From: Escherichia coli
GTDB taxonomy: Bacteria > Pseudomonadota > Gammaproteobacteria > Enterobacterales > Enterobacteriaceae
Strand: one strand, 5' to 3'
Assembly: GCF_003334305.1 (NCBI RefSeq)
Contig: NZ_QOWS01000014.1
DNA length: 64,000 bases
Shown: in pieces, positions 1 to 30,315 of the stretch
Numbering within the stretch: the first letter of the stretch is position 1
How the letters are laid out: the number at the start of each line of letters is the position of its first letter
Notes under the pieces: generated by a model
The model's input: the letters and a program-made list of their open reading frames with translations, nothing else
Told to the model about the DNA's origin: nothing
Databases searched by the model: none
Program-made: the position numbers and the translations under genes

Positions 1-2835
1 CAGCCTGCCGTGACGGTCATACCGGTAAAGATAGTGCGCGTCACGGGCGATACGGTTATCCGGCCACATGCTGAGGGTGCTGTCCGGGTGCAGCTCCGGG
101 TCGGGCAGGCGGTTGCCCGCCGGGTCCGTGGCATACGGGATGCGGATATCCAGATTCGCTGCGGTGGTGTGAACGCCGGTCAGCCTGCCGGTGGTGCTGT
201 AGCTGTAACTCCGGGTCTGGCGCGGGCTGCTGATGCGGATGAGTTCGCCGTTGTCGTTCCAGGTGTAATCGCGGTCATACTGCAGGCTGTTCAGGTGCTG
301 ACGCTGTAACTGCCCGGCAGGGGTGTAAGCGGTGGTGAGTTCATAACGGCCGAAGCGGCGCAGCGTTTCCCGGTGCAGGCGGTCGCGGGTGTACTCCACC
401 AGCGGTGTGTCGCCGAGTTTCATGCCTGCCAGGTAACCGCTGCCGTAGGTCAGCCATTCCACGGCGGGCAGGCTGTCCGGTATACAGCGGTTCGCCAGTC
501 CCTGCGCGTTGTACGCATGTCTGGTCTCATGCTGCCAGAGCAGTGCTTCCGTCTGCGGGTGATGCACCGTCTGGCGCTCACCGGTCAGGCGGCCTTTCTC
601 ATCATACCTGTAATGCACCGCTACCCGGTGCCCTTCGCTGATATGGCTGATGTCTGTCAGCCAGCCACGTTCGTCATACCGCCACCGCTCTGCGGTTTCA
701 CCCTTCACGGTGCGGTGCGTGAGGCGGTCTGCTTCGTCATAGTGCCAGTGGGTGACCAGACCCTCATCCTCGCTGCGGATAAGTTTGCCGGTCAGGTCGT
801 GGTGATAACGCTGTGTGCGGCCGTCAAAGCCGGTTTCCTGTATCAGCCGGTCAAGTACATCGTAACGGAAGGTGGTGTGGCTGCCGTTTTCACTGGTCAG
901 GCGGATGACCCGTCCGGCAGCATCGTATTCCATACTGCGCGTCAGCCCGCCCTGCGTGGTACGGACGGCCTTTCCCCACGCATCGTACTGTGTCCCGTTT
1001 CTGCTGCCGTCCGGGGCAATGACGGCGGTCAGGTCACCGGCGATGTTGTATTCATACCGCGTTTCATGGCCCTGCGTGTCTTTCACCGCAGTTAACTGTC
1101 CACGGCTGTCGTATGCGTGGTACTGGCTCAGGCCTTCCTCGCGGTGCACCGCCGTCACCTGACCAAAACGGTCATGGTCATAGCGGGTTACATAACCGGA
1201 ACAGTCAGTGAAGGTCAGCAACTGACCGTAACGGCTCCACGTCATGGTTTTCCGGCTGCCGGTGGCATCGTCCGTTGCGCAGGGGAGGTCACTGTGTGGA
1301 TTATCATAACGGTAGCGGGTGATATCGCCGTCAGGGGCAGTTTCCTGAATCAGACGGCCGGATTCATCATATTCCCGGCGCAATTCCAGCCCGTCAGGCC
1401 CGGTGGCTGACGTTAACTGGTTGTGGTGGTTATAGTAAAACGCCGATGCCCTGCCATCCGGCGTGGTTATGCGCGTGATGAGGCCCGTCACCACATCCGG
1501 GCTGTACTCTGTTGTCCTGCCTGCGGCATCCGTCTGTGCCCTGAGCCTGCCCACGGCGTCAAACTGACTCTGCGTGACGCTGCCGTCCGCGTGTTCCTTT
1601 TTCACCACCCGCTTCAGCCCGGCTTCGCCCTGCGTGTGCAGCACTTCACGGCGGTCCAGGCTGTCGGTGATGGTGATGTGGTCTTTCTCATACTGATACG
1701 TGTAGCTTAAGCCTGCCGGGTTTAGCTGTTCTGTCACCCGCCCGTCGCTGTCGTAACGGTAACGGATTTCCGGTCGGCTCGTGTGACGGTGCGCCACCAT
1801 CCGGCCCCGGTATTTATCATCGTAAGTAAAGCTGCGCACCTGTGTATTGCTGCGGTCATACACTGCCGCCAGTTCGCCGCGCGGCGTCCAGCCATAGCGC
1901 ACCAGCGGCGCGGCAGGTAAATTCTCCGGGTATTCCGGGTCGTGCGTCAGCCACACGGCAGACAGACGGATGCCGTTGTCCCGGCCATATTCGGTGTAAC
2001 CCGGCAGGGTATCAGGAAAAGCGGACGGTTCCGTCCCGCCGGAAATGGCCTGCTGCCGGGCTTCTTCTGCCCGCTGCGCCTGCGTGGTCAGTACCAGCCG
2101 GAAGTGACGCCCGGCACCATCCGTCACGCCGGTGATTTCGCCGCTGAATTCACCGGCGGCTTCGTGGTGGAACGTCTGTGTGCGCCCGAAGCGGTCCACC
2201 AGCCCGGTCAGTACCCGGTACGGCGGCAGCGGCGCAGGCAGCACCTCATCCGCTTCCGGCACCCGCTCACACCAGCCGAGTACCCACCACGGCCCCTGCG
2301 GACTGTTTGTCGCCAGATAACGATGCGGACTCAGGCGAAGCTCTTCCGGCAGCGCCTGCCAGAGTGCGGCCAGCCGGTGACCTTCATCCAGTTTCGCCAC
2401 ACCGCCGCGCACCAGCCAGAGTGATTCGCTGCGGCTGTAACCGTCCTCACCGGGAAACAGGTGCTCAAAATACAGGCTTCTGCCGCCGTTATCACTGAGT
2501 ATCAGTGTGTTATCGCGCAGCTGTAAGCGGATATCCGCAGGCATTTTCCAGCCGGGGCCGAGGCTCCCCACCGGCGCGGGCGTTTTTGTCCGGTAACTGC
2601 TGTAGGTGCGGGAGAGAATGAACGGCAGCGGGCCGGGCAGGGCGATGTCGGTTTCACCGGGAAGGACCTTTGCACCCAGCAGCGGATTGACCGGATGGCC
2701 GGACGTCACCCCGCCGGGGCACACCGAACAGGCCACGCCGGTGGGGGCACCGATGCGCACCCCGGCTGAACCCTGGACAATGCTACCGCCATACTGCGTC
2801 ATGTCGCCCTGACGCGCCGCCGGTTTTCCGCTCAT
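1..2835 (-). CDS. rhsC: Rhs-family core protein, N-terminal ~945 codons; gene continues beyond the window start
   Basis: Minus-strand frame open from ATG at 2835..2833 to position 1; translation begins [33 protein letters not shown] and carries YD-repeat blocks (RYDxxGRL). AAGGA 7 nt upstream of the ATG. Absent from the ORF track because no stop falls in the window. Symbol assigned from position next to ybfA only. Confidence 0.85.
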
Positions 2836-11362: not shown

Positions 11363-11636
11363 ATGTTTATTCAATAAATGCGCTTAAATAATTATTAATT
11401 TATTATTAAACCTGCCAAAAATATTATTATTTGGCAGGTTTAATTTCTTAACGCAAATATAAAACACAAAATTACAACATTTAAATAACAAAACAGCATC
11501 TAATATGGCGCTATTCATAATTAATGATTTATTATTTGGGGTATGATCGTTTTTTGTTGATCTTCTTCACAGATTATAGCCATTTCATGGATAGAATAAC
11601 TCTACCTTCAACTGACACAGCAAGAGGTAAAGGTAA

Positions 11637-21079: not shown

Positions 21080-22486
21080 TCAGAAGATGGTGAATGGTGC
21101 GATTACCATAAATTTCACGTCACGCTCATCCTGGAAGATGTTACCGTAACCGCCGCCCCAGCTTGGGATGTCAGAGTGGTTGTCGTATTCGGTGAAGTGC
21201 AGTTTGAACATCGTGCCTTTGGCGCGGCCGTCCTGAATGGTGTAGACCGCATCCAGGCTGTAGGCAGACTCTTCAATAGTCCGGTTTTTGTCGTAGTACG
21301 CATCCGGATTGCTCTGCCAGGTCGCAGGTTTAGCATCCCATGCGTAAACGTAGGAAGCGCCGATGGCGAAGCCTGGAAGATTCCAGTTTTTCAGGTCATA
21401 CATCGCACCGAAGAAGACCGCTTTTTCTCCGTTAGCGTTGAAGTCGGAACGGTTATCCCACCAGATATCCAGGCGACCGTTCGAGGAAGCGTAGGTTGGA
21501 GTCATACGTTGCAGGAAGTATCCCTGCTGACCGTCAGCCTTAACCCAGGTGCCTTCAAGGCGCAAATCCACTACGTCAGCCGCCCGGTAACCAAAGGTCA
21601 ATGCTTGCAGCCAAGCGGTGCCGTCATAAAGATCGTTGACGCTGCGATCGTCAACTTTATCGCGGGTACCGTAGAACTGGTAGCTGGTGGTTAACGGGCT
21701 ACCGGCGATATCAAATTTGTAGCTGGCTTTGGCAAAATATTGATCGATATACCCTTCCGCCTGACCAAATGCCGCTTCCAGTACGAAGTTATTTTTGAAG
21801 TCGTATTTCGCCCCAAGGGAGTGCAGATAATCAACTTTGGTGGTTTTATCGTTCTGATAAAACTCATCCATTTCCAGATGCCACGGCGCTTTGTATTCGT
21901 TGGTCCACATGTAGGAGAAACTCAAGGCACCAGCATCGCCGTAATCAAAATTCGCCCCGGCTTCCGCCCCCTGATAAGTACCTGGCATAAAGCTCCAGTG
22001 CGGCGCTAACAGCGTTTGACCAGTTGGCTGAATGTAACCTGCCCTCGCCCAAACCGGACCGTATTTAAATTTGGCCGCAGCTTTATACAGGCTTATACCG
22101 CTTTTGTCGCCGGACCAGTCTTCGTCATAGGCTTTATTACTTTTTGAAAACGCGATTTCGTTCGGGTGGGAGCTGTCGCCGTTTTCCGCCATTTCAATCG
22201 CCGTAAACGCAGCAATATCAAGGCCGAACATATCAGCAGCATAACCGGACTGAAAATCGAGGTTGGCATTCCAGGTGGAGTGAGAAAGGTTGGTTTTGTA
22301 TTTGTCGCCGTCGGTAACATCTTTACGGTCGCGTTCACGCTGCCAGTAATATATACCGCCGGTTAAGGTTGAATCGTCGATGAATCCTTCGGCGCGAGCC
22401 TCCGGCATTGCCATAAAGCCCGACATTGCTGTAACACCGGCGATAGCCAGCGCCAGCGTACTACGTTTGCCACTAAACGTACGCAT
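21080..22486 (-). CDS. chiP: Chitooligosaccharide outer-membrane porin ChiP (YbfM), 468 aa
   Basis: ORF-track protein with signal peptide [35 protein letters not shown] and C-terminal aromatic residue (…PFTIF), OprD-like porin. Confidence 0.93.
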
Positions 22487-22844
22487 GGGTTAATCCTCTT
22501 TGACGTATAAATTGCTGCACCAAAGGTGAACAGCGAAAAAATAAAAATTAAAAAAGTAGCGTTGAGAAAAGTCTCGCTGACTACAGGAACAGACTATTTT
22601 TCGCGACGCGAATTATCAATCTCTTTCTGTAACCAGAATGTAAGAACATGAGCAACCGCACATATTTTGATGATTTTTGTTACAAGGCTTAAGTTTGCGG
22701 TTGAAAGGCTTGCAGAAGAATAAAAGCGTGAATTTCCAGCAAGATGGAAGCGGTTACATTTTATTTAATTATGGTTTGTGATTTTAAATTTATTTTATGG
22801 ATAAATTGCGAAGCGGAATTAATTCGCGAAGAAAAGCAGAAAAA

Positions 22845-24798: not shown

Positions 24799-26745
24799 TT
24801 ACTTTTTGATTTCATACAGCGGTGTTTGACCCGCCACAACATGGCCCTGAGCTTTAATGATCAAGCCACTGAAATCGTCGATATTGCTGCAAACCACCGG
24901 GCTAATCATCGAGCGGGCGTTAGCGTTCAGGTAATCCAGATCCATTTCCAGAATCGGTTGCCCTGCGCTTACCTGCGCACCCTCTTCCACCAGACGTTTA
25001 AAGCCTTTACCTTCCAGCGCTACGGTGTCGATACCCATATGGACGACGATCTCCGCGCCTTTTTCGGTTTCCAGGCAGAACGCGTGGTTGGTGTTGAAGA
25101 TTTTCACGATTGTCCCTGCGGCTGGTGATACGACGATTTTATCTGTCGGTTTCACCGCCACACCGTCACCCACCGCTTTGCTGGCGAATGCTTCGTCAGG
25201 AACCTGATCCAGTGCCACGACATCACCGGTAATCGGCGATACCAGCTCCGCGATAGATACCGCGTTTGGTACAGCCTGCGGTTTTGCTACAGGCGCGGCA
25301 GTTGCCGGAGTTGCTTCAGCTGACGCAGCTGCTACCGGACCGCGGGCAACGACTTTCTTCATCGCATCGCCGATGGATTCTGCTTTCGCGCCAACAATCA
25401 CCTGAATAGTCTGTTTGTTCAGTTTTACTACACCAGAAGCACCCAGACGTTTACACATCGTATCGTTAACGCGGGCAGAGTCAGCCACTGTAAGGCGCAG
25501 ACGGGTGATACAGGCGTCAATTGCTTTCAGGTTGTCAGTGCCGCCAACCGCAGCAATATAGTTGGTCGCCAGTTGATTGAGGCCTTCTTCAGTGTTGCTG
25601 TTGGCTTCTTCAGTAACGATCTCGTCTTCTTTATCTTCACGACCCGGCGTTTTCAGGTTGAACATGCGGATAACCAAACTGAACACCACGAAGTAGATAG
25701 CGAAGAAGACAACACCCATCACCAGCAGCATCCAGACGTTCTGGCTGGCGGCCGGCAGGTTATACATCAACGCGTAGTCGATAGCCCCCGCAGAGAAAGA
25801 GAAGCCAGCATGGATACCCAGCAGTGTTGCCACAAACAGGCTGATACCGGTCAGCAGTGCGTGCAGGAGGTACAGCAGCGGTGCAAGGAACATGAACAGG
25901 AATTCCAGCGGCTCAGTCACACCGGTCAGGAACGCAGTAACAGCAACAGAAAGCAGCATCCCGCCAACCATAGGACGACGCTCTTTCGGTGCTGCGAAGT
26001 ACATCGCCAGCGCCGCACCCGGCAGACCGAACATCATAATCGGGAAGAAGCCGGACATGAACATCCCCGCGGTGCCGTCACCGGCATAGAAGCGGTTGAT
26101 ATCACCGTGGAAAACCGTACCCGCCGCGTTGGTGAATTCACCAATCTGGAACCAGGCGATGGTGTTCAGCACCTGATGCAGACCGGTTGGGATCAGCAGA
26201 CGGTTGATGAAACCAAAGATACCGGAACCCAGCGCGCCCGCAGAAACGATCCACTCGCCTCCTGCATGGATAGCGTGCTGTACCGGCGGCCAGACGTAAC
26301 CAAAAATGGCCGCCAGCACCAGGCAGAAGAAGCCGGTGGCAATCGGCACAAAGCGTTTGCCGCCGAAGAAACTCAGGAAGTCCGGCAGTTTAATATCGGA
26401 CCAACGGTTATAGGCTGCGCCACCAACCAGACCGGTAATGATACCCGCCAGTACACCCATGTTAATTTCTGGGTTGATGGTCACCATCGCTTTGGTTAAC
26501 ACAAAGTAACCTACCGCACCCGCCAGCGCCGCCGCACCTGCGCTGTCTTTCGACCAGCTGGATGCCACACCGATGGCGAAGATTAATGCGAGGTTATCAA
26601 AAATCGCACCGCCCGCCTGGGCAATAAACGCAACGTTAAGTAAATCTGGCTGACCGAATCGCAGCAACAGTGCCGCCACCGGCAGCACCGCGATAGGGAG
26701 CTGTAACGCCCTACCGAGTCGCTGGAAAAAACCTAAAATATTCAT
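24799..26745 (-). CDS. nagE: PTS N-acetylglucosamine-specific EIICBA component NagE, 648 aa
   Basis: ORF-track protein MNILGFFQRLGRALQLPIAVLPVAALLLRFGQPDLLN...; EIIB Cys motif (CITRLR) and C-terminal EIIA domain. Confidence 0.96.
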   Translation of the reverse strand: MNILGFFQRLGRALQLPIAVLPVAALLLRFGQPDLLNVAFIAQAGGAIFDNLALIFAIGVASSWSKDSAGAAALAGAVGYFVLTKAMVTINPEINMGVLAGIITGLVGGAAYNRWSDIKLPDFLSFFGGKRFVPIATGFFCLVLAAIFGYVWPPVQHAIHAGGEWIVSAGALGSGIFGFINRLLIPTGLHQVLNTIAWFQIGEFTNAAGTVFHGDINRFYAGDGTAGMFMSGFFPIMMFGLPGAALAMYFAAPKERRPMVGGMLLSVAVTAFLTGVTEPLEFLFMFLAPLLYLLHALLTGISLFVATLLGIHAGFSFSAGAIDYALMYNLPAASQNVWMLLVMGVVFFAIYFVVFSLVIRMFNLKTPGREDKEDEIVTEEANSNTEEGLNQLATNYIAAVGGTDNLKAIDACITRLRLTVADSARVNDTMCKRLGASGVVKLNKQTIQVIVGAKAESIGDAMKKVVARGPVAAASAEATPATAAPVAKPQAVPNAVSIAELVSPITGDVVALDQVPDEAFASKAVGDGVAVKPTDKIVVSPAAGTIVKIFNTNHAFCLETEKGAEIVVHMGIDTVALEGKGFKRLVEEGAQVSAGQPILEMDLDYLNANARSMISPVVCSNIDDFSGLIIKAQGHVVAGQTPLYEIKK

Positions 26746-26867
26746 CTTATTCCCCCTACGAGAACCCTATTTGGCTCGTTTAAAGCCGTATTTTTATTTT
26801 GCTGCAAATTGTACTGCCGATGTTCTGTAATCAGATTGTTAGATCATCTGCTACAGAGTGTGTGAAA

Positions 26868-26892
26868 ATTTAATTCGTATCGCAAATTAAAC
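26868..26892. promoter_or_regulatory. Candidate NagC operator in the nagE-nagB divergent control region
   Basis: AATTTAATTCGTATCGCAAATTAAA: AT-rich dyad TTAATTCG/CGCAAATTAA; about 30 bp from the CRP site. Assignment from the known nag regulon architecture. Confidence 0.4.
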
Positions 26893-26899
26893 GCGTGTC

Positions 26900-26921
26900 T
26901 TTTGTGAGTTTTGTCACCAAA
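26900..26921. promoter_or_regulatory. CRP binding site, nagE-nagB intergenic
   Basis: TGTGA-GTTTTG-TCACC at 26903..26918, a near-consensus TGTGA-N6-TCACA site, central in the divergent promoter region. Confidence 0.7.
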
Positions 26922-26962
26922 TATCGTTATCATCACTCCCTTTTACTGGCTAAACCAGAAAA

Positions 26963-26985
26963 CTTATTTTATCATTCAAAAAATC
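26963..26985. promoter_or_regulatory. Second candidate NagC operator near the nagB promoter
   Basis: CTTATTTTATCATTCAAAAAATC, AT-rich element about 94 bp from the first candidate, on the opposite side of the CRP site, consistent with the looped two-operator arrangement. Confidence 0.35.
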
Positions 26986-27077
26986 AGGTCGGATTGACGC
27001 CTGTCTGCGCAAATCCAGGTTACGCTTAAAGATGCCTAATCCGCCAACGGCTTACATTTTACTTATTGAGGTGAATA

Positions 27078-27878
27078 ATGAGACTGATCCCCCTGACTAC
27101 CGCTGAACAGGTCGGCAAATGGGCTGCTCGCCATATCGTCAATCGTATCAATGCGTTCAAACCGACTGCCGATCGTCCGTTTGTTCTGGGCCTGCCGACT
27201 GGCGGCACGCCGATGACCACCTATAAAGCGTTAGTCGAAATGCATAAAGCAGGCCAGGTCAGCTTTAAGCACGTTGTCACCTTCAACATGGACGAATATG
27301 TCGGTCTGCCGAAAGAGCATCCGGAAAGCTACTACAGCTTTATGCACCGTAATTTCTTCGATCACGTTGATATTCCAGCAGAAAACATCAACCTTCTCAA
27401 CGGCAACGCCCCGGATATCGACGCCGAATGCCGCCAGTATGAAGAAAAAATCCGTTCTTACGGAAAAATTCATCTGTTTATGGGCGGTGTAGGTAACGAC
27501 GGTCATATTGCATTTAACGAACCGGCGTCTTCTCTGGCTTCTCGTACTCGTATCAAAACCTTGACTCATGACACTCGCGTCGCGAACTCTCGTTTCTTTG
27601 ATAACGATGTCAATCAGGTGCCAAAATATGCCCTGACTGTCGGTGTTGGTACATTGCTGGATGCCGAAGAAGTGATGATTCTGGTGCTGGGTAGCCAGAA
27701 AGCACTGGCACTGCAGGCTGCAGTTGAAGGTTGCGTGAACCACATGTGGACCATCAGCTGTCTGCAACTGCATCCAAAAGCGATCATGGTGTGCGATGAA
27801 CCTTCCACCATGGAGCTGAAAGTTAAGACTTTAAGATATTTCAATGAATTAGAAGCAGAAAATATCAAAGGTCTGTAA
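27078..27878 (+). CDS. nagB: Glucosamine-6-phosphate deaminase NagB, 266 aa
   Basis: ORF-track protein [45 protein letters not shown]... Confidence 0.97.
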
Positions 27879-29094: not shown

Positions 29095-30315
29095 ATGACA
29101 CCAGGCGGACAAGCTCAGATAGGTAATGTTGATCTCGTAAAACAGCTTAACAGCGCGGCGGTTTATCGCCTGATTGACCAGTACGGGCCAATCTCGCGGA
29201 TTCAGATTGCCGAGCAAAGCCAGCTTGCCCCCGCCAGCGTAACCAAAATTACGCGTCAGCTTATCGAACGCGGGCTGATCAAAGAAGTTGATCAGCAGGC
29301 CTCCACCGGGGGCCGCCGCGCTATCTCCATCGTCACCGAAACCCGCAATTTCCACGCAATCGGCGTACGGCTTGGTCGTCACGACGCCACCATCACCCTG
29401 TTTGATCTCAGCAGCAAAGTGCTGGCAGAAGAACATTACCCGCTGCCGGAACGTACCCAGCAAACGCTGGAACATGCCCTGTTGAATGCCATTGCTCAGT
29501 TTATTGATAGCTACCAGCGCAAACTGCGCGAGCTGATCGCGATTTCGGTGATCCTGCCAGGGCTTGTTGACCCGGACAGCGGCAAAATTCATTACATGCC
29601 GCATATTCAGGTAGAAAACTGGGGGCTGGTAGAAGCACTGGAAGAACGTTTTAAAGTGACCTGTTTCGTTGGTCACGATATCCGTAGTCTGGCGCTGGCG
29701 GAGCACTACTTCGGTGCAAGTCAGGATTGCGAAGACTCCATTCTGGTGCGTGTCCATCGCGGAACCGGGGCCGGGATTATCTCTAACGGGCGCATTTTTA
29801 TTGGCCGCAACGGCAACGTCGGTGAAATTGGCCATATTCAGGTCGAACCGCTGGGTGAACGCTGCCACTGCGGCAACTTTGGCTGCCTGGAAACTATCGC
29901 TGCCAACGCCGCTATTGAACAACGGGTGTTGAATCTGTTAAAGCAGGGCTACCAGAGCCGCGTGCCGCTGGACGACTGCACCATCAAAACTATCTGCAAA
30001 GCCGCGAACAAAGGCGATAGCCTGGCCTCGGAAGTGATTGAGTATGTCGGTCGTCATCTGGGCAAAACCATCGCCATTGCTATCAACTTATTTAATCCGC
30101 AAAAAATTGTTATTGCCGGTGAAATCACCGAAGCCGATAAAGTGCTGCTCCCTGCTATTGAAAGCTGCATTAATACCCAGGCGCTGAAGGCGTTTCGCAC
30201 TAATCTGCCGGTGGTACGTTCTGAGCTGGATCACCGCTCGGCAATCGGCGCTTTTGCGCTGGTAAAACGCGCCATGCTCAACGGTATTTTGCTCCAGCAT
30301 TTGCTGGAAAATTAA
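29095..30315 (+). CDS. nagC: ROK-family transcriptional regulator NagC, 406 aa
   Basis: ORF-track protein MTPGGQAQIGNVDLVKQLNSAAVYRLIDQYGPISRIQIAEQSQLAPASVTKITRQLIERGLI... (N-terminal HTH, ROK zinc motif CHCGNFGCLE). Confidence 0.97.
   Translation: MTPGGQAQIGNVDLVKQLNSAAVYRLIDQYGPISRIQIAEQSQLAPASVTKITRQLIERGLIKEVDQQASTGGRRAISIVTETRNFHAIGVRLGRHDATITLFDLSSKVLAEEHYPLPERTQQTLEHALLNAIAQFIDSYQRKLRELIAISVILPGLVDPDSGKIHYMPHIQVENWGLVEALEERFKVTCFVGHDIRSLALAEHYFGASQDCEDSILVRVHRGTGAGIISNGRIFIGRNGNVGEIGHIQVEPLGERCHCGNFGCLETIAANAAIEQRVLNLLKQGYQSRVPLDDCTIKTICKAANKGDSLASEVIEYVGRHLGKTIAIAINLFNPQKIVIAGEITEADKVLLPAIESCINTQALKAFRTNLPVVRSELDHRSAIGAFALVKRAMLNGILLQHLLEN

What the first reader, a model, noticed from the sequence alone, without database searches (positions are those of the whole stretch)
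26746..27077. nagE-nagBACD divergent control region with central CRP site and flanking AT-rich dyads
Seen: near-consensus CRP site TGTGA-N6-TCACC, with AT-rich dyads about 30 bp to one side and 64 bp to the other (centre-to-centre about 94 bp between dyads). This matches the looping architecture known for NagC. It is ordinary biology, but a useful internal control and strengthens the chiP observation.
Basis: partly seen in the sequence, partly recalled or inferred. Interest (0 to 1): 0.2.

Follow-up and report, generated by a model that had tools for sequence, protein, structure and literature searches.

The report
E. coli nagE–nagB control region
This is the well-studied switch between the E. 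coli genes for importing and burning the amino sugar N-acetylglucosamine: two NagC repressor sites 94 bp apart with a CRP activator site between them.

Summary
Window 26746-27077 is the 332-bp spacer between nagE (minus strand) and nagBACD (plus strand) of Escherichia coli. It differs from K-12 MG1655 at two bases, neither in a mapped site.

The CRP core TGTGA-N6-TCACC is at 26903-26918 (centre 26910.5). The two AT-rich dyads are letter-for-letter the published NagC operators:
- nagE operator ("BoxE" in this report), 26869-26891, centre 26880
- nagB operator ("BoxB"), 26963-26985, centre 26974

They lie 30.5 and 63.5 bp from the CRP centre and 94 bp apart. Their published K-12 coordinates map onto exactly these positions.

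A NagC matrix built without these two sites ranks them 2nd and 3rd of 63,978 window positions. The chiP-proximal operator ranks 1st.

Public 5'-end maps put CRP at -61.5 for nagE and -72.5 for nagB. BoxE then covers the nagE -35 and BoxB the nagB -10 and +1.

In 56 of 58 other species with a divergent nagE-like gene the same module recurs. Spacing is 94 bp (50 loci) or 93 bp (10 loci) across the 60 loci that carry it, although the DNA between the sites has diverged.

The mechanism is NagC looping repression plus class I CRP activation. It is already known and of low interest, and it works as an internal control.

The parts
26746..27077 (.). nagE-nagBACD divergent intergenic control region (332 bp)
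   Evidence: Bounded by the nagE ATG (26745, minus strand) and the nagB ATG (27078, plus strand). Annotated nagE | nagB in E. coli genomes. Two SNPs against K-12.
26869..26891 (.). NagC operator of nagE (BoxE), weak or hybrid type with A/T at +/-11; centre 26880, which is -31 from the nagE start
   Evidence: Identical to the published nagE operator and its K-12 position. Scores 19.5 bits on the leave-out matrix, rank 2 in the window. Has TT/AA at +/-5,6 as PMC4288165 requires. A site of this kind recurs at the same relative position in the 60 loci that carry the module.
26880..26885 (-). Inferred nagE -35 hexamer TTGCGA, inside BoxE
   Evidence: Inference from the sequence and the nagE 5' end at 26849. 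It matches 4 of 6 to TTGACA and lies 17 bp upstream of the inferred -10 CACACT at 26857-26862.
26849..26849 (-). nagE transcription start
   Evidence: Cappable-seq TSS at U00096.2 703063 on the plus strand (PMC4782308, supplementary file 1) maps to window 26849. A weaker TSS at 703084 maps to 26828.
26900..26921 (.). CRP (CAP) site; core TGTGA-N6-TCACC at 26903-26918, centre 26910.5
   Evidence: One mismatch to the core consensus. Lies at -61.5 from the nagE start and -72.5 from the nagB start. Found 30.5 bp from BoxE in 53 of the 60 loci that carry the two-operator module.
26946..26952 (+). Conserved block CTGGCTA, probably the nagB -35 region
   Evidence: It is the only other conserved block in the 49-locus footprint. 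It lies 17-18 bp upstream of the inferred nagB -10. The assignment is an inference.
26963..26985 (.). NagC operator of nagB (BoxB), strong type with C at -11 and +11; centre 26974, which is -9 from the nagB start
   Evidence: Identical to the published nagB operator and its K-12 position. Scores 14.5 bits on the leave-out matrix, rank 3 in the window. C at -11 in 58 of 60 loci.
26970..26975 (+). Inferred nagB -10 hexamer TATCAT, inside BoxB
   Evidence: Matches 5 of 6 to TATAAT, with 7 nt between it and the mapped start at 26983. Inference.
26983..26983 (+). nagB transcription start
   Evidence: TSS at U00096.2 702929, with a 95-nt 5'UTR, in PMC3415461 supplementary file 2. The printed 51-mer ends at window 26983. 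A second 5' end at 702878 maps to window 27034.
29095..30315 (+). nagC, the repressor gene, third gene of the controlled operon (autoregulation)
   Evidence: 406 aa, identical in amino-acid sequence to K-12 NagC.

Best explanation
This is the canonical E. coli nagE-nagBACD divergent control region.

Without the inducer, NagC binds two 23-bp operators. BoxE covers the nagE -35 and BoxB covers the nagB -10 and +1. Their centres are 94 bp apart, about nine helical turns, so they lie on the same face of the helix. The bound proteins interact and loop out the DNA between them. The intrinsically weak BoxE (A/T at +/-11) is filled only through this cooperation with the strong BoxB (C at +/-11). Both promoters are therefore shut together.

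cAMP-CRP binds between the operators, about 3 and 6 helical turns from them. It sits at -61.5 for nagE and -72.5 for nagB, so it can activate both promoters as a class I activator once NagC is released.

Basis of each step:
- Shown here: the sites, their identity to the published operators, all distances, their positions relative to published 5' ends, and the conservation of the architecture.
- From papers I could not open: CAP binding (Plumbridge & Kolb 1991, title seen only), and from my own memory of that literature, GlcNAc-6-phosphate as the inducer that releases NagC and the stabilisation of the loop by the CRP-induced bend.
- Inferred: the exact -10 and -35 hexamers.
For: Identity:
- Near-identical to K-12, and present in 5,425 of 5,426 complete E. 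coli genomes as nagE | nagB.
- Both operators are letter-identical to the published sequences and map to their published K-12 coordinates, 94 bp apart.
- They meet the operator rules of PMC4288165: 23-bp quasi-palindromes with TT/AA at +/-5,6; C/G at +/-11 in the strong site; A/T at +/-11 in the weak nagE site.

Statistics:
- The leave-out matrix ranks the sites 2nd and 3rd in 64 kb. None of 20,000 shuffles of the spacer reproduced both scores.

Promoter geometry:
- Published 5' ends give CRP at -61.5 and -72.5, BoxE at -31 and BoxB at -9.

Conservation:
- 56 of 58 species with a divergent nagE-like gene carry the same BoxE-CRP-BoxB module. 0 of 17 loci without such a gene do.
- Operator spacing is 94 bp in 50 loci and 93 bp in 10.
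- The inter-site DNA has almost no information content, and the distance to the nagB ATG varies from 64 to 270 bp.
- The weak/strong operator asymmetry is kept: BoxE has A/T at +/-11 in 58-59 of 60 loci, against the matrix's own preference, and BoxB has C at -11 in 58 of 60.

Repressor:
- NagC is intact and identical to K-12.
Against: Nothing found argues against it.

Limits of the evidence:
- The CRP core match alone is no better than chance across the window.
- The TSS data come from genome-wide maps with few reads (13 for nagB) and from strain K-12, not this strain.
- The primary footprinting and looping papers (Plumbridge & Kolb 1991, 1993, 1998; Plumbridge 2001) were not held in the library. 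CAP binding, loop stabilisation by CAP and the identity of the inducer are therefore cited from memory or from secondary papers.
- PMC4288165 describes the nagE operator as '-11A,+11T', whereas I read T at -11 and A at +11 on either strand. Both are A/T pairs, so the conclusion is unaffected.
Confidence: 0.97

Rival explanations
1. The dyads are chance AT-rich sequences, or generic promoter or UP-element DNA, in an AT-rich spacer. They are not specific operators.
For: The spacer is only 38% G+C. Other AT-rich intergenic DNA in the window gives matrix hits of 12-14 bits, for example 11440-11462.
Against: None of 20,000 dinucleotide-preserving shuffles gave both scores. The sites are letter-identical to experimentally defined operators. 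Sites, spacing and +/-11 identities are conserved in about 60 species while the neighbouring bases are randomised.
Confidence: 0.005
2. The sites are operators for the paralogue Mlc rather than NagC. The two consensus sequences are nearly indistinguishable, and BoxE has the Mlc-like A/T at +/-11.
For: PMC4288165 calls the wild-type nagE operator a hybrid Mlc/NagC site and says the Mlc and NagC sequence logos are essentially indistinguishable.
Against: BoxB has C at both -11 and +11, the NagC signature. This is conserved in 58 and 48 of 60 species. PMC4288165 reports no cross-regulation between the two regulons at physiological protein levels, and preferential regulation of nagE by NagC when the nagB operator is present. 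nagC is itself part of the controlled operon.
Confidence: 0.01
3. NagC represses each promoter independently by simple occlusion, and the 94-bp spacing is incidental. There is no loop.
For: Each operator overlaps core promoter elements: BoxE the nagE -35, BoxB the nagB -10 and +1. Occlusion alone could therefore repress.
Against: The spacing is held at 94 or 93 bp in 60 species although the inter-site sequence has diverged and the other distances vary widely. PMC4288165 reports that a nagE fusion with the single wild-type operator is not regulated by NagC, and that repression relies on cooperative binding through looping. The conserved weakness of BoxE only makes sense if there is cooperativity.
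Confidence: 0.015

Closest known systems
E. coli K-12 nagE-nagBACD control region (Plumbridge & Kolb 1991, 1993, 1998; Plumbridge 2001)
   Same: It is the same locus. The operators and the CRP site are identical, the spacings are the same (94, 30.5 and 63.5 bp), the flanking genes are the same, and NagC is identical.
   Different: Two SNPs in unmapped parts of the spacer. Window 26782 is A where K-12 has C (nagE leader, +68). Window 26931 is C where K-12 has T (between the CRP site and the nagB -35). There are also three conservative NagE substitutions.
Other two-operator NagC loops (chbB, glmUS, fimB) and the chiP (ybfM) operator in this same window
   Same: The same 23-bp operator type. Cooperative binding at two separated sites is reported for nagE-B, chb, glmU and fimB (PMC5401889).
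   Different: The distances and outcomes differ: NagC activates at glmUS (PMC2806358). For chiP the matrix finds one strong site at 22595-22617 plus a weaker hit at 22800-22822, which is a different spacing.
gal and lac repression loops with a CRP site inside the loop
   Same: A short loop of roughly 100 bp between two operators, with a CRP site between them (from general knowledge; PMC3089460 cites nagE-B alongside lac and gal as examples of ~100-bp regulatory loops).
   Different: The repressor belongs to a different family: ROK-family NagC rather than LacI/GalR. Here the loop silences two divergent promoters at once.

Membership tests
NagC-controlled nagE-nagBACD divergent regulatory region | Lies between divergently transcribed nagE and nagB, with nagA, nagC and nagD (umpH) downstream of nagB | tested here: met
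   The ORFs and K-12 comparison give NagB, NagA, NagC and UmpH identical in amino-acid sequence, and NagE with 3 substitutions.
NagC-controlled nagE-nagBACD divergent regulatory region | Two 23-bp quasi-palindromic NagC operators with TT/AA at +/-5,6 | tested here: met
   Read from the sequence against the rule in PMC4288165. The sites rank 2nd and 3rd on the leave-out matrix.
NagC-controlled nagE-nagBACD divergent regulatory region | Operator sequences and positions equal to the annotated K-12 operators | tested here: met
   PMC3098098 Tables 1 and 2 give exact 23-mers at 702949 and 703043 (U00096.2), which map to window 26963-85 and 26869-91.
NagC-controlled nagE-nagBACD divergent regulatory region | Strong nagB operator (C/G at +/-11) paired with a weak nagE operator (A/T at +/-11) | tested here: met
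   BoxB has C at both positions and BoxE has T and A. This asymmetry is conserved in about 58 of 60 species and is described in PMC4288165.
NagC-controlled nagE-nagBACD divergent regulatory region | Operators an integral number of helical turns apart, allowing a repression loop | tested here: met
   94 bp divided by 10.5 gives 8.95 turns. The spacing is 94 or 93 bp in 60 of 60 loci that carry the module.
NagC-controlled nagE-nagBACD divergent regulatory region | NagC physically binds both sites and forms a loop that the inducer releases | not testable with these tools
   Binding and looping come from the literature only (PMC4288165, PMC5401889). The inducer (GlcNAc-6-phosphate) is from my memory of primary papers that were not held.
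Class I CRP-dependent promoter | Match to TGTGA-N6-TCACA | tested here: met
   9 of 10 core positions match. The match is not significant window-wide on its own.
Class I CRP-dependent promoter | Site centred near -61.5, -72.5, -82.5 or -92.5 from the transcription start | tested here: met
   -61.5 from the nagE start (window 26849) and -72.5 from the nagB start (window 26983), using the published K-12 5' ends.
Class I CRP-dependent promoter | cAMP-CRP dependence of transcription | not testable with these tools
   Known only from literature that I could not open; the Plumbridge & Kolb 1991 title was seen in reference lists.
Mlc operator | A/T at both +/-11 positions | tested here: not met
   Met for BoxE but not for BoxB, which has C at both positions. 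The pair as a whole is therefore not an Mlc target.

The most novel reading that the evidence does not exclude
The BoxE-CRP-BoxB module behaves as a rigid, conserved cassette across Enterobacterales, Aeromonas and part of the Vibrionaceae.

What is conserved:
- Spacing fixed at 94 or 93 bp.
- A deliberately weak nagE operator (A/T at +/-11).
- A CRP half-site that is never the consensus TCACA: TCACC in 46, TCACT in 9 and TCACA in 0 of 56 loci.

The cassette is retained even where the nagE gene behind it belongs to a lineage only about 40% identical to K-12 NagE. One genome labelled E. coli (L003) has a mosaic junction at about BoxE.

This would suggest that sub-optimal sites are selected design features, and that the control region can persist through, or serve as a junction for, replacement of the transporter gene.

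Comparative genomics of the NagC regulon has been published, so at best this is an incremental refinement.
Probability: 0.35. Interest if true: 0.25.

Novelty: already known. Interest (0 to 1): 0.1.

Why it matters
It matters mainly as a positive control for the scan. Reading raw sequence alone, the first stage recovered a textbook regulatory architecture with base-pair-accurate geometry. That lends credibility to its related chiP/NagC call in the same window.

The cross-species check adds a modest point. The 94-bp operator spacing, the weak/strong operator asymmetry and the position of the CRP site are conserved over a wide range of gamma-proteobacteria. This is what the looping model predicts.

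Tried and rejected
- Primary papers. I tried to read Plumbridge 2001 (NAR), Plumbridge & Kolb 1998 (NAR), El Qaidi & Plumbridge 2008, Plumbridge 1996 and Plumbridge 1995 (EMBO J). None is held. Details of the CAP footprint, loop stabilisation and the inducer are therefore marked as memory or secondary citation.
- Full-text search for the CRP site sequence. It returned only unrelated antibody-primer papers.
- Generic sigma-70 consensus scan of the spacer. It found only one site, at 27051-27079, no more than the shuffles gave. It missed both real, activator-dependent promoters, so I used published 5' ends instead.
- The repeat finder. It did not report the operator dyads, because the arms are 7 bp, below the length I set. 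It reported two other inverted repeats, which I regard as chance.
- First alignment to K-12. It used the wrong strand and was redone.
- nagB start in the Cappable-seq supplement. The minus-strand part of the stored file is cut.
- Rfam scan of the spacer. It gave only a sub-threshold chance hit to a yeast snoRNA model.
- Rivals considered and rejected: chance AT-rich DNA, Mlc as the regulator, and independent occlusion without looping (see the rival explanations).

Full report
**1. What is at the coordinates**

Window 26746-27077 is exactly the spacer between a minus-strand ORF ending at its ATG at 26745 (24799-26745, 648 aa) and a plus-strand ORF starting at 27078 (266 aa). A 601-bp query across it matches 5,425 of 5,426 complete E. 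coli genomes, at 99% identity or more in 5,419. The features under the match are annotated nagE and nagB.

Against K-12 MG1655 (locus L001, opposite orientation) the 421-bp stretch 26700-27120 differs at two bases only. Window 26782 is A where K-12 has C, and 26931 is C where K-12 has T. NagB, NagA, NagC and UmpH are identical in amino-acid sequence to K-12. NagE has three conservative substitutions. The window is therefore an E. coli chromosome segment. Coordinates convert as U00096.3 = 730689 - x and U00096.2 = 729912 - x.

**2. The observation**

- The CRP-like core TGTGAGTTTTGTCACC lies at 26903-26918 (centre 26910.5), with one mismatch to TGTGA-N6-TCACA.
- The left dyad, TTTAATTCGTATCGCAAATTAAA (26869-26891, centre 26880), has perfect 7-bp inverted arms.
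- The right dyad, CTTATTTTATCATTCAAAAAATC (26963-26985, centre 26974), is less symmetric.
- Centre-to-centre distances are 30.5 bp (CRP to left dyad), 63.5 bp (CRP to right dyad) and 94 bp (dyad to dyad).

**3. Is it more than chance?**

I took the ten NagC operators listed in Table 1 of PMC3098098. I built a symmetrised position-weight matrix from the eight that are not nagE or nagB. Over the whole 64-kb window the three best positions are:

| Rank | Position | Score | Identity |
|---|---|---|---|
| 1 | 22595-22617 | 24.3 bits | reverse complement of the published 'ybfM proximal' (chiP) operator |
| 2 | 26869-26891 | 19.5 bits | left dyad (BoxE) |
| 3 | 26963-26985 | 14.5 bits | right dyad (BoxB) |

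The next hit scores 13.8 bits. Leaving out the chiP site as well does not change the ranking.

In 20,000 dinucleotide-preserving shuffles of the spacer, the best score reached 19.5 bits in 0.05% of shuffles. The second-best non-overlapping score reached 14.5 bits in 0.01%. Both occurred together in none.

The CRP core is different. Two matches with at most one mismatch occur in the window against 2.03 expected. The pattern alone proves nothing. The support for this site comes from its position and its conservation (sections 5 and 6).

**4. Comparison with the annotated K-12 operators**

PMC3098098 gives the nagB operator as CTTATTTTATCATTCAAAAAATC and the nagE operator as TTTAATTTGCGATACGAATTAAA. 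Its genome scan places them at U00096.2 702949 and 703043 (same-strand convention), 94 bp apart. Converted, these are window 26963-26985 and 26869-26891, exactly the two dyads.

PMC4288165 gives the operator rules:
- The operators are 23-bp quasi-palindromes.
- Only TT/AA at +/-5,6 is invariant.
- C or G at +/-11 marks high-affinity NagC sites.
[quoted passage not shown] Both window sites have TT/AA at +/-5,6. BoxB has C at -11 and +11, and BoxE has T and A. PMC5401889 also lists nagE-B among the operons that need two NagC sites and looping.

**5. Promoter geometry**

I used published 5'-end maps.
- Kim et al. 2012 (PMC3415461, supplementary file 2) list a nagB start at U00096.2 702929, with a 95-nt leader. 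The printed 51-mer ends at window 26983. They list a second 5' end at 702878, which is window 27034.
- The Cappable-seq table (PMC4782308, supplementary file 1) lists plus-strand starts at 703063 and, more weakly, 703084. These are window 26849 and 26828 in the nagE direction.

The CRP centre is therefore at -61.5 for nagE and -72.5 for nagB. Both are canonical class I positions, from established knowledge of CRP promoters. BoxE is centred at -31 of nagE and contains a plausible -35, TTGCGA (26885-26880). That lies 17 bp from a weak -10, CACACT (26862-26857). BoxB is centred at -9 of nagB and contains a good -10, TATCAT (26970-26975), as well as the start site. The hexamer assignments are my inference. 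The generic promoter scan missed both promoters, as expected for activator-dependent promoters.

In helical terms 94 bp is 8.95 turns, 30.5 bp is 2.9 turns and 63.5 bp is 6.05 turns. All three proteins therefore sit on about the same face of the helix. This fits the reported cooperation between CAP bending and the NagC loop, which I cite from memory of Plumbridge & Kolb 1991 and 1998. Those papers were not held.

**6. Related sequences**

A scan of one genome per species for NagB relatives returned 80 loci: Enterobacterales, Vibrionaceae, Aeromonas and Pasteurellaceae. I scanned the 450 nt upstream of nagB with the same leave-out matrix and the CRP core. The results were:
- 60 of 79 usable loci have two NagC-type sites 94 bp (50 loci) or 93 bp (10 loci) apart.
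- A CRP core lies 30.5 bp from the nagE-side site in 53 loci, and 63.5 bp from the nagB-side site in 50.
- The module is present in 56 of 58 loci that have a divergent nagE-like gene. It is present in 0 of 17 loci that lack one, mostly Vibrio.
- The distance from BoxB to the nagB ATG ranges from 64 to 270 bp.

An ungapped stack of 49 distinct 94-bp loci shows high information only at BoxE, the CRP site, a CTGGCTA block (26946-26952, probably the nagB -35) and BoxB. The DNA between them is essentially randomised. Constant length across diverged sequence is the signature expected for a phase-dependent loop.

The weak/strong asymmetry is also conserved. BoxE has A/T at -11 in 59 and at +11 in 58 of 60 loci, even though the matrix used to find the sites prefers C/G there. 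BoxB has C at -11 in 58 and at +11 in 48 of 60. The invariance of TT/AA at +/-5,6 is partly ascertainment, because the matrix selects for it.

**7. Mechanism**

The best-supported model, at about 0.97 confidence, is as follows:
- NagC, encoded in the controlled operon itself, binds BoxB strongly.
- Through protein-protein contact across a 94-bp loop it also binds the weak BoxE. This occludes the nagB -10/+1 and the nagE -35 together.
- GlcNAc-6-phosphate releases NagC.
- cAMP-CRP at -61.5 and -72.5 then activates both promoters.

The sites, distances, TSS relations and conservation are shown here. CAP binding, the inducer and the effect of CAP on the loop come from papers I could not open or from memory. 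The hexamers are inferred.

The rival explanations are all poorly supported (see their entries): chance AT-rich DNA, Mlc as the regulator, and independent occlusion without looping.

**8. Novelty and verdict**

This is already-known, textbook-level regulation in the organism where it was discovered. Interest is low (0.1). Its value is as an internal control, and the related chiP operator call in the same window is also verified.

The most novel reading not excluded concerns the evolutionary rigidity of the cassette, its conserved sub-optimal sites, and its persistence in front of two very different nagE lineages. That would be an incremental comparative-genomics point.

Noticed in passing
L003, L008, L010-L014, L016-L018, L021-L023, L025-L030 and others, about 640-1190 (minus strand), compared with window 24799-26745: Two very different nagE lineages occupy the same position behind the same control module. 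The K-12 type is 88-99% identical over the first 150 aa in 11 loci. A second type is only about 40% identical, with about 23 extra residues, in 47 loci. Both pass the NCBIfam TIGR01998 (GlcNAc-specific IIBC) cut-off, but only the K-12 type matches NF007608 strongly. The two types are distributed patchily across genera: Enterobacter cloacae has the K-12 type and E. asburiae has type 2.
   Followed up: partly
L003 (NZ_JAATUR010000059.1, labelled Escherichia coli strain SCPM-O-B-8794), 1-1500: This locus is a mosaic. From about BoxB to nagB and beyond it is Escherichia-like, 97-100% identical to the window. The nagE side is closest to Pseudocitrobacter, Leclercia and Enterobacter (84-88%). The identity break falls at about BoxE. 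All 5,425 complete E. coli genomes that matched carry the K-12-type junction, so this is rare or an assembly or labelling issue.
   Followed up: partly
window 26914-26918 and the orthologous sites in L002-L080: The nagB-proximal CRP half-site is never the consensus TCACA in 56 species. It is TCACC in 46, TCACT in 9 and TCATT in 1. The nagE-proximal half is TGTGA in 49 and CGTGA in 7. A conserved non-consensus base suggests either selection for sub-maximal CRP affinity or an overlapping signal.
   Followed up: no
window 22595-22617 and 22800-22822 (upstream of chiP, 21080-22486, minus strand): The best NagC matrix hit in the whole window (24.3 bits) is the exact published 'ybfM proximal' operator. 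A weaker hit (11.9 bits) lies 205 bp further upstream. K-12 annotates the sRNA gene chiZ immediately upstream of chiP.
   Followed up: partly
window 11440-11462: The fourth-best NagC matrix hit is TTAATTTCTTAACGCAAATATAA (13.8 bits). It lies in the very AT-rich kdpE-speFL intergenic region, just after an inverted repeat (CCTGCCAAA...TTTGGCAGG). It is probably a chance match in AT-rich DNA. No NagC link to speF is known to me.
   Followed up: partly
window 27058-27080: A weak NagC-like hit, TTTACTTATTGAGGTGAATAATG (12.5 bits), overlaps the nagB ribosome-binding site and start codon. It is not conserved at a fixed position in other species, so it is likely chance.
   Followed up: partly
window 27034 (K-12 U00096.2 702878): A second nagB 5' end lies 44 nt upstream of the ATG in the Kim et al. 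2012 table, with as many reads as the main start. I saw no convincing -10/-35 for it. It may be a processing site or a minor promoter.
   Followed up: no
window 26772-26798: A small hairpin followed by a T-run on the plus strand (TGGCTCGTTTAAAGCCG TATTTTTATT) was flagged as terminator-like. It lies antisense to the nagE leader, and one of the two K-12 SNPs (26782) is in its loop. On the nagE mRNA it would be a 4-5 bp leader hairpin. Its significance is unknown.
   Followed up: no
L041, L044, L046, L048, L050, L053, L055, L063, L067, L068, L075, L077, L078, L081 (Vibrio, Aliivibrio and Photobacterium nagB loci without a divergent nagE): These loci have a different architecture. A strong NagC-type site is centred about 41-54 bp upstream of the nagB ATG. 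Often a second site lies about 135-167 bp further upstream, and there is no CRP core at the enterobacterial position. Moritella (L071) has sites 126 bp apart.
   Followed up: no
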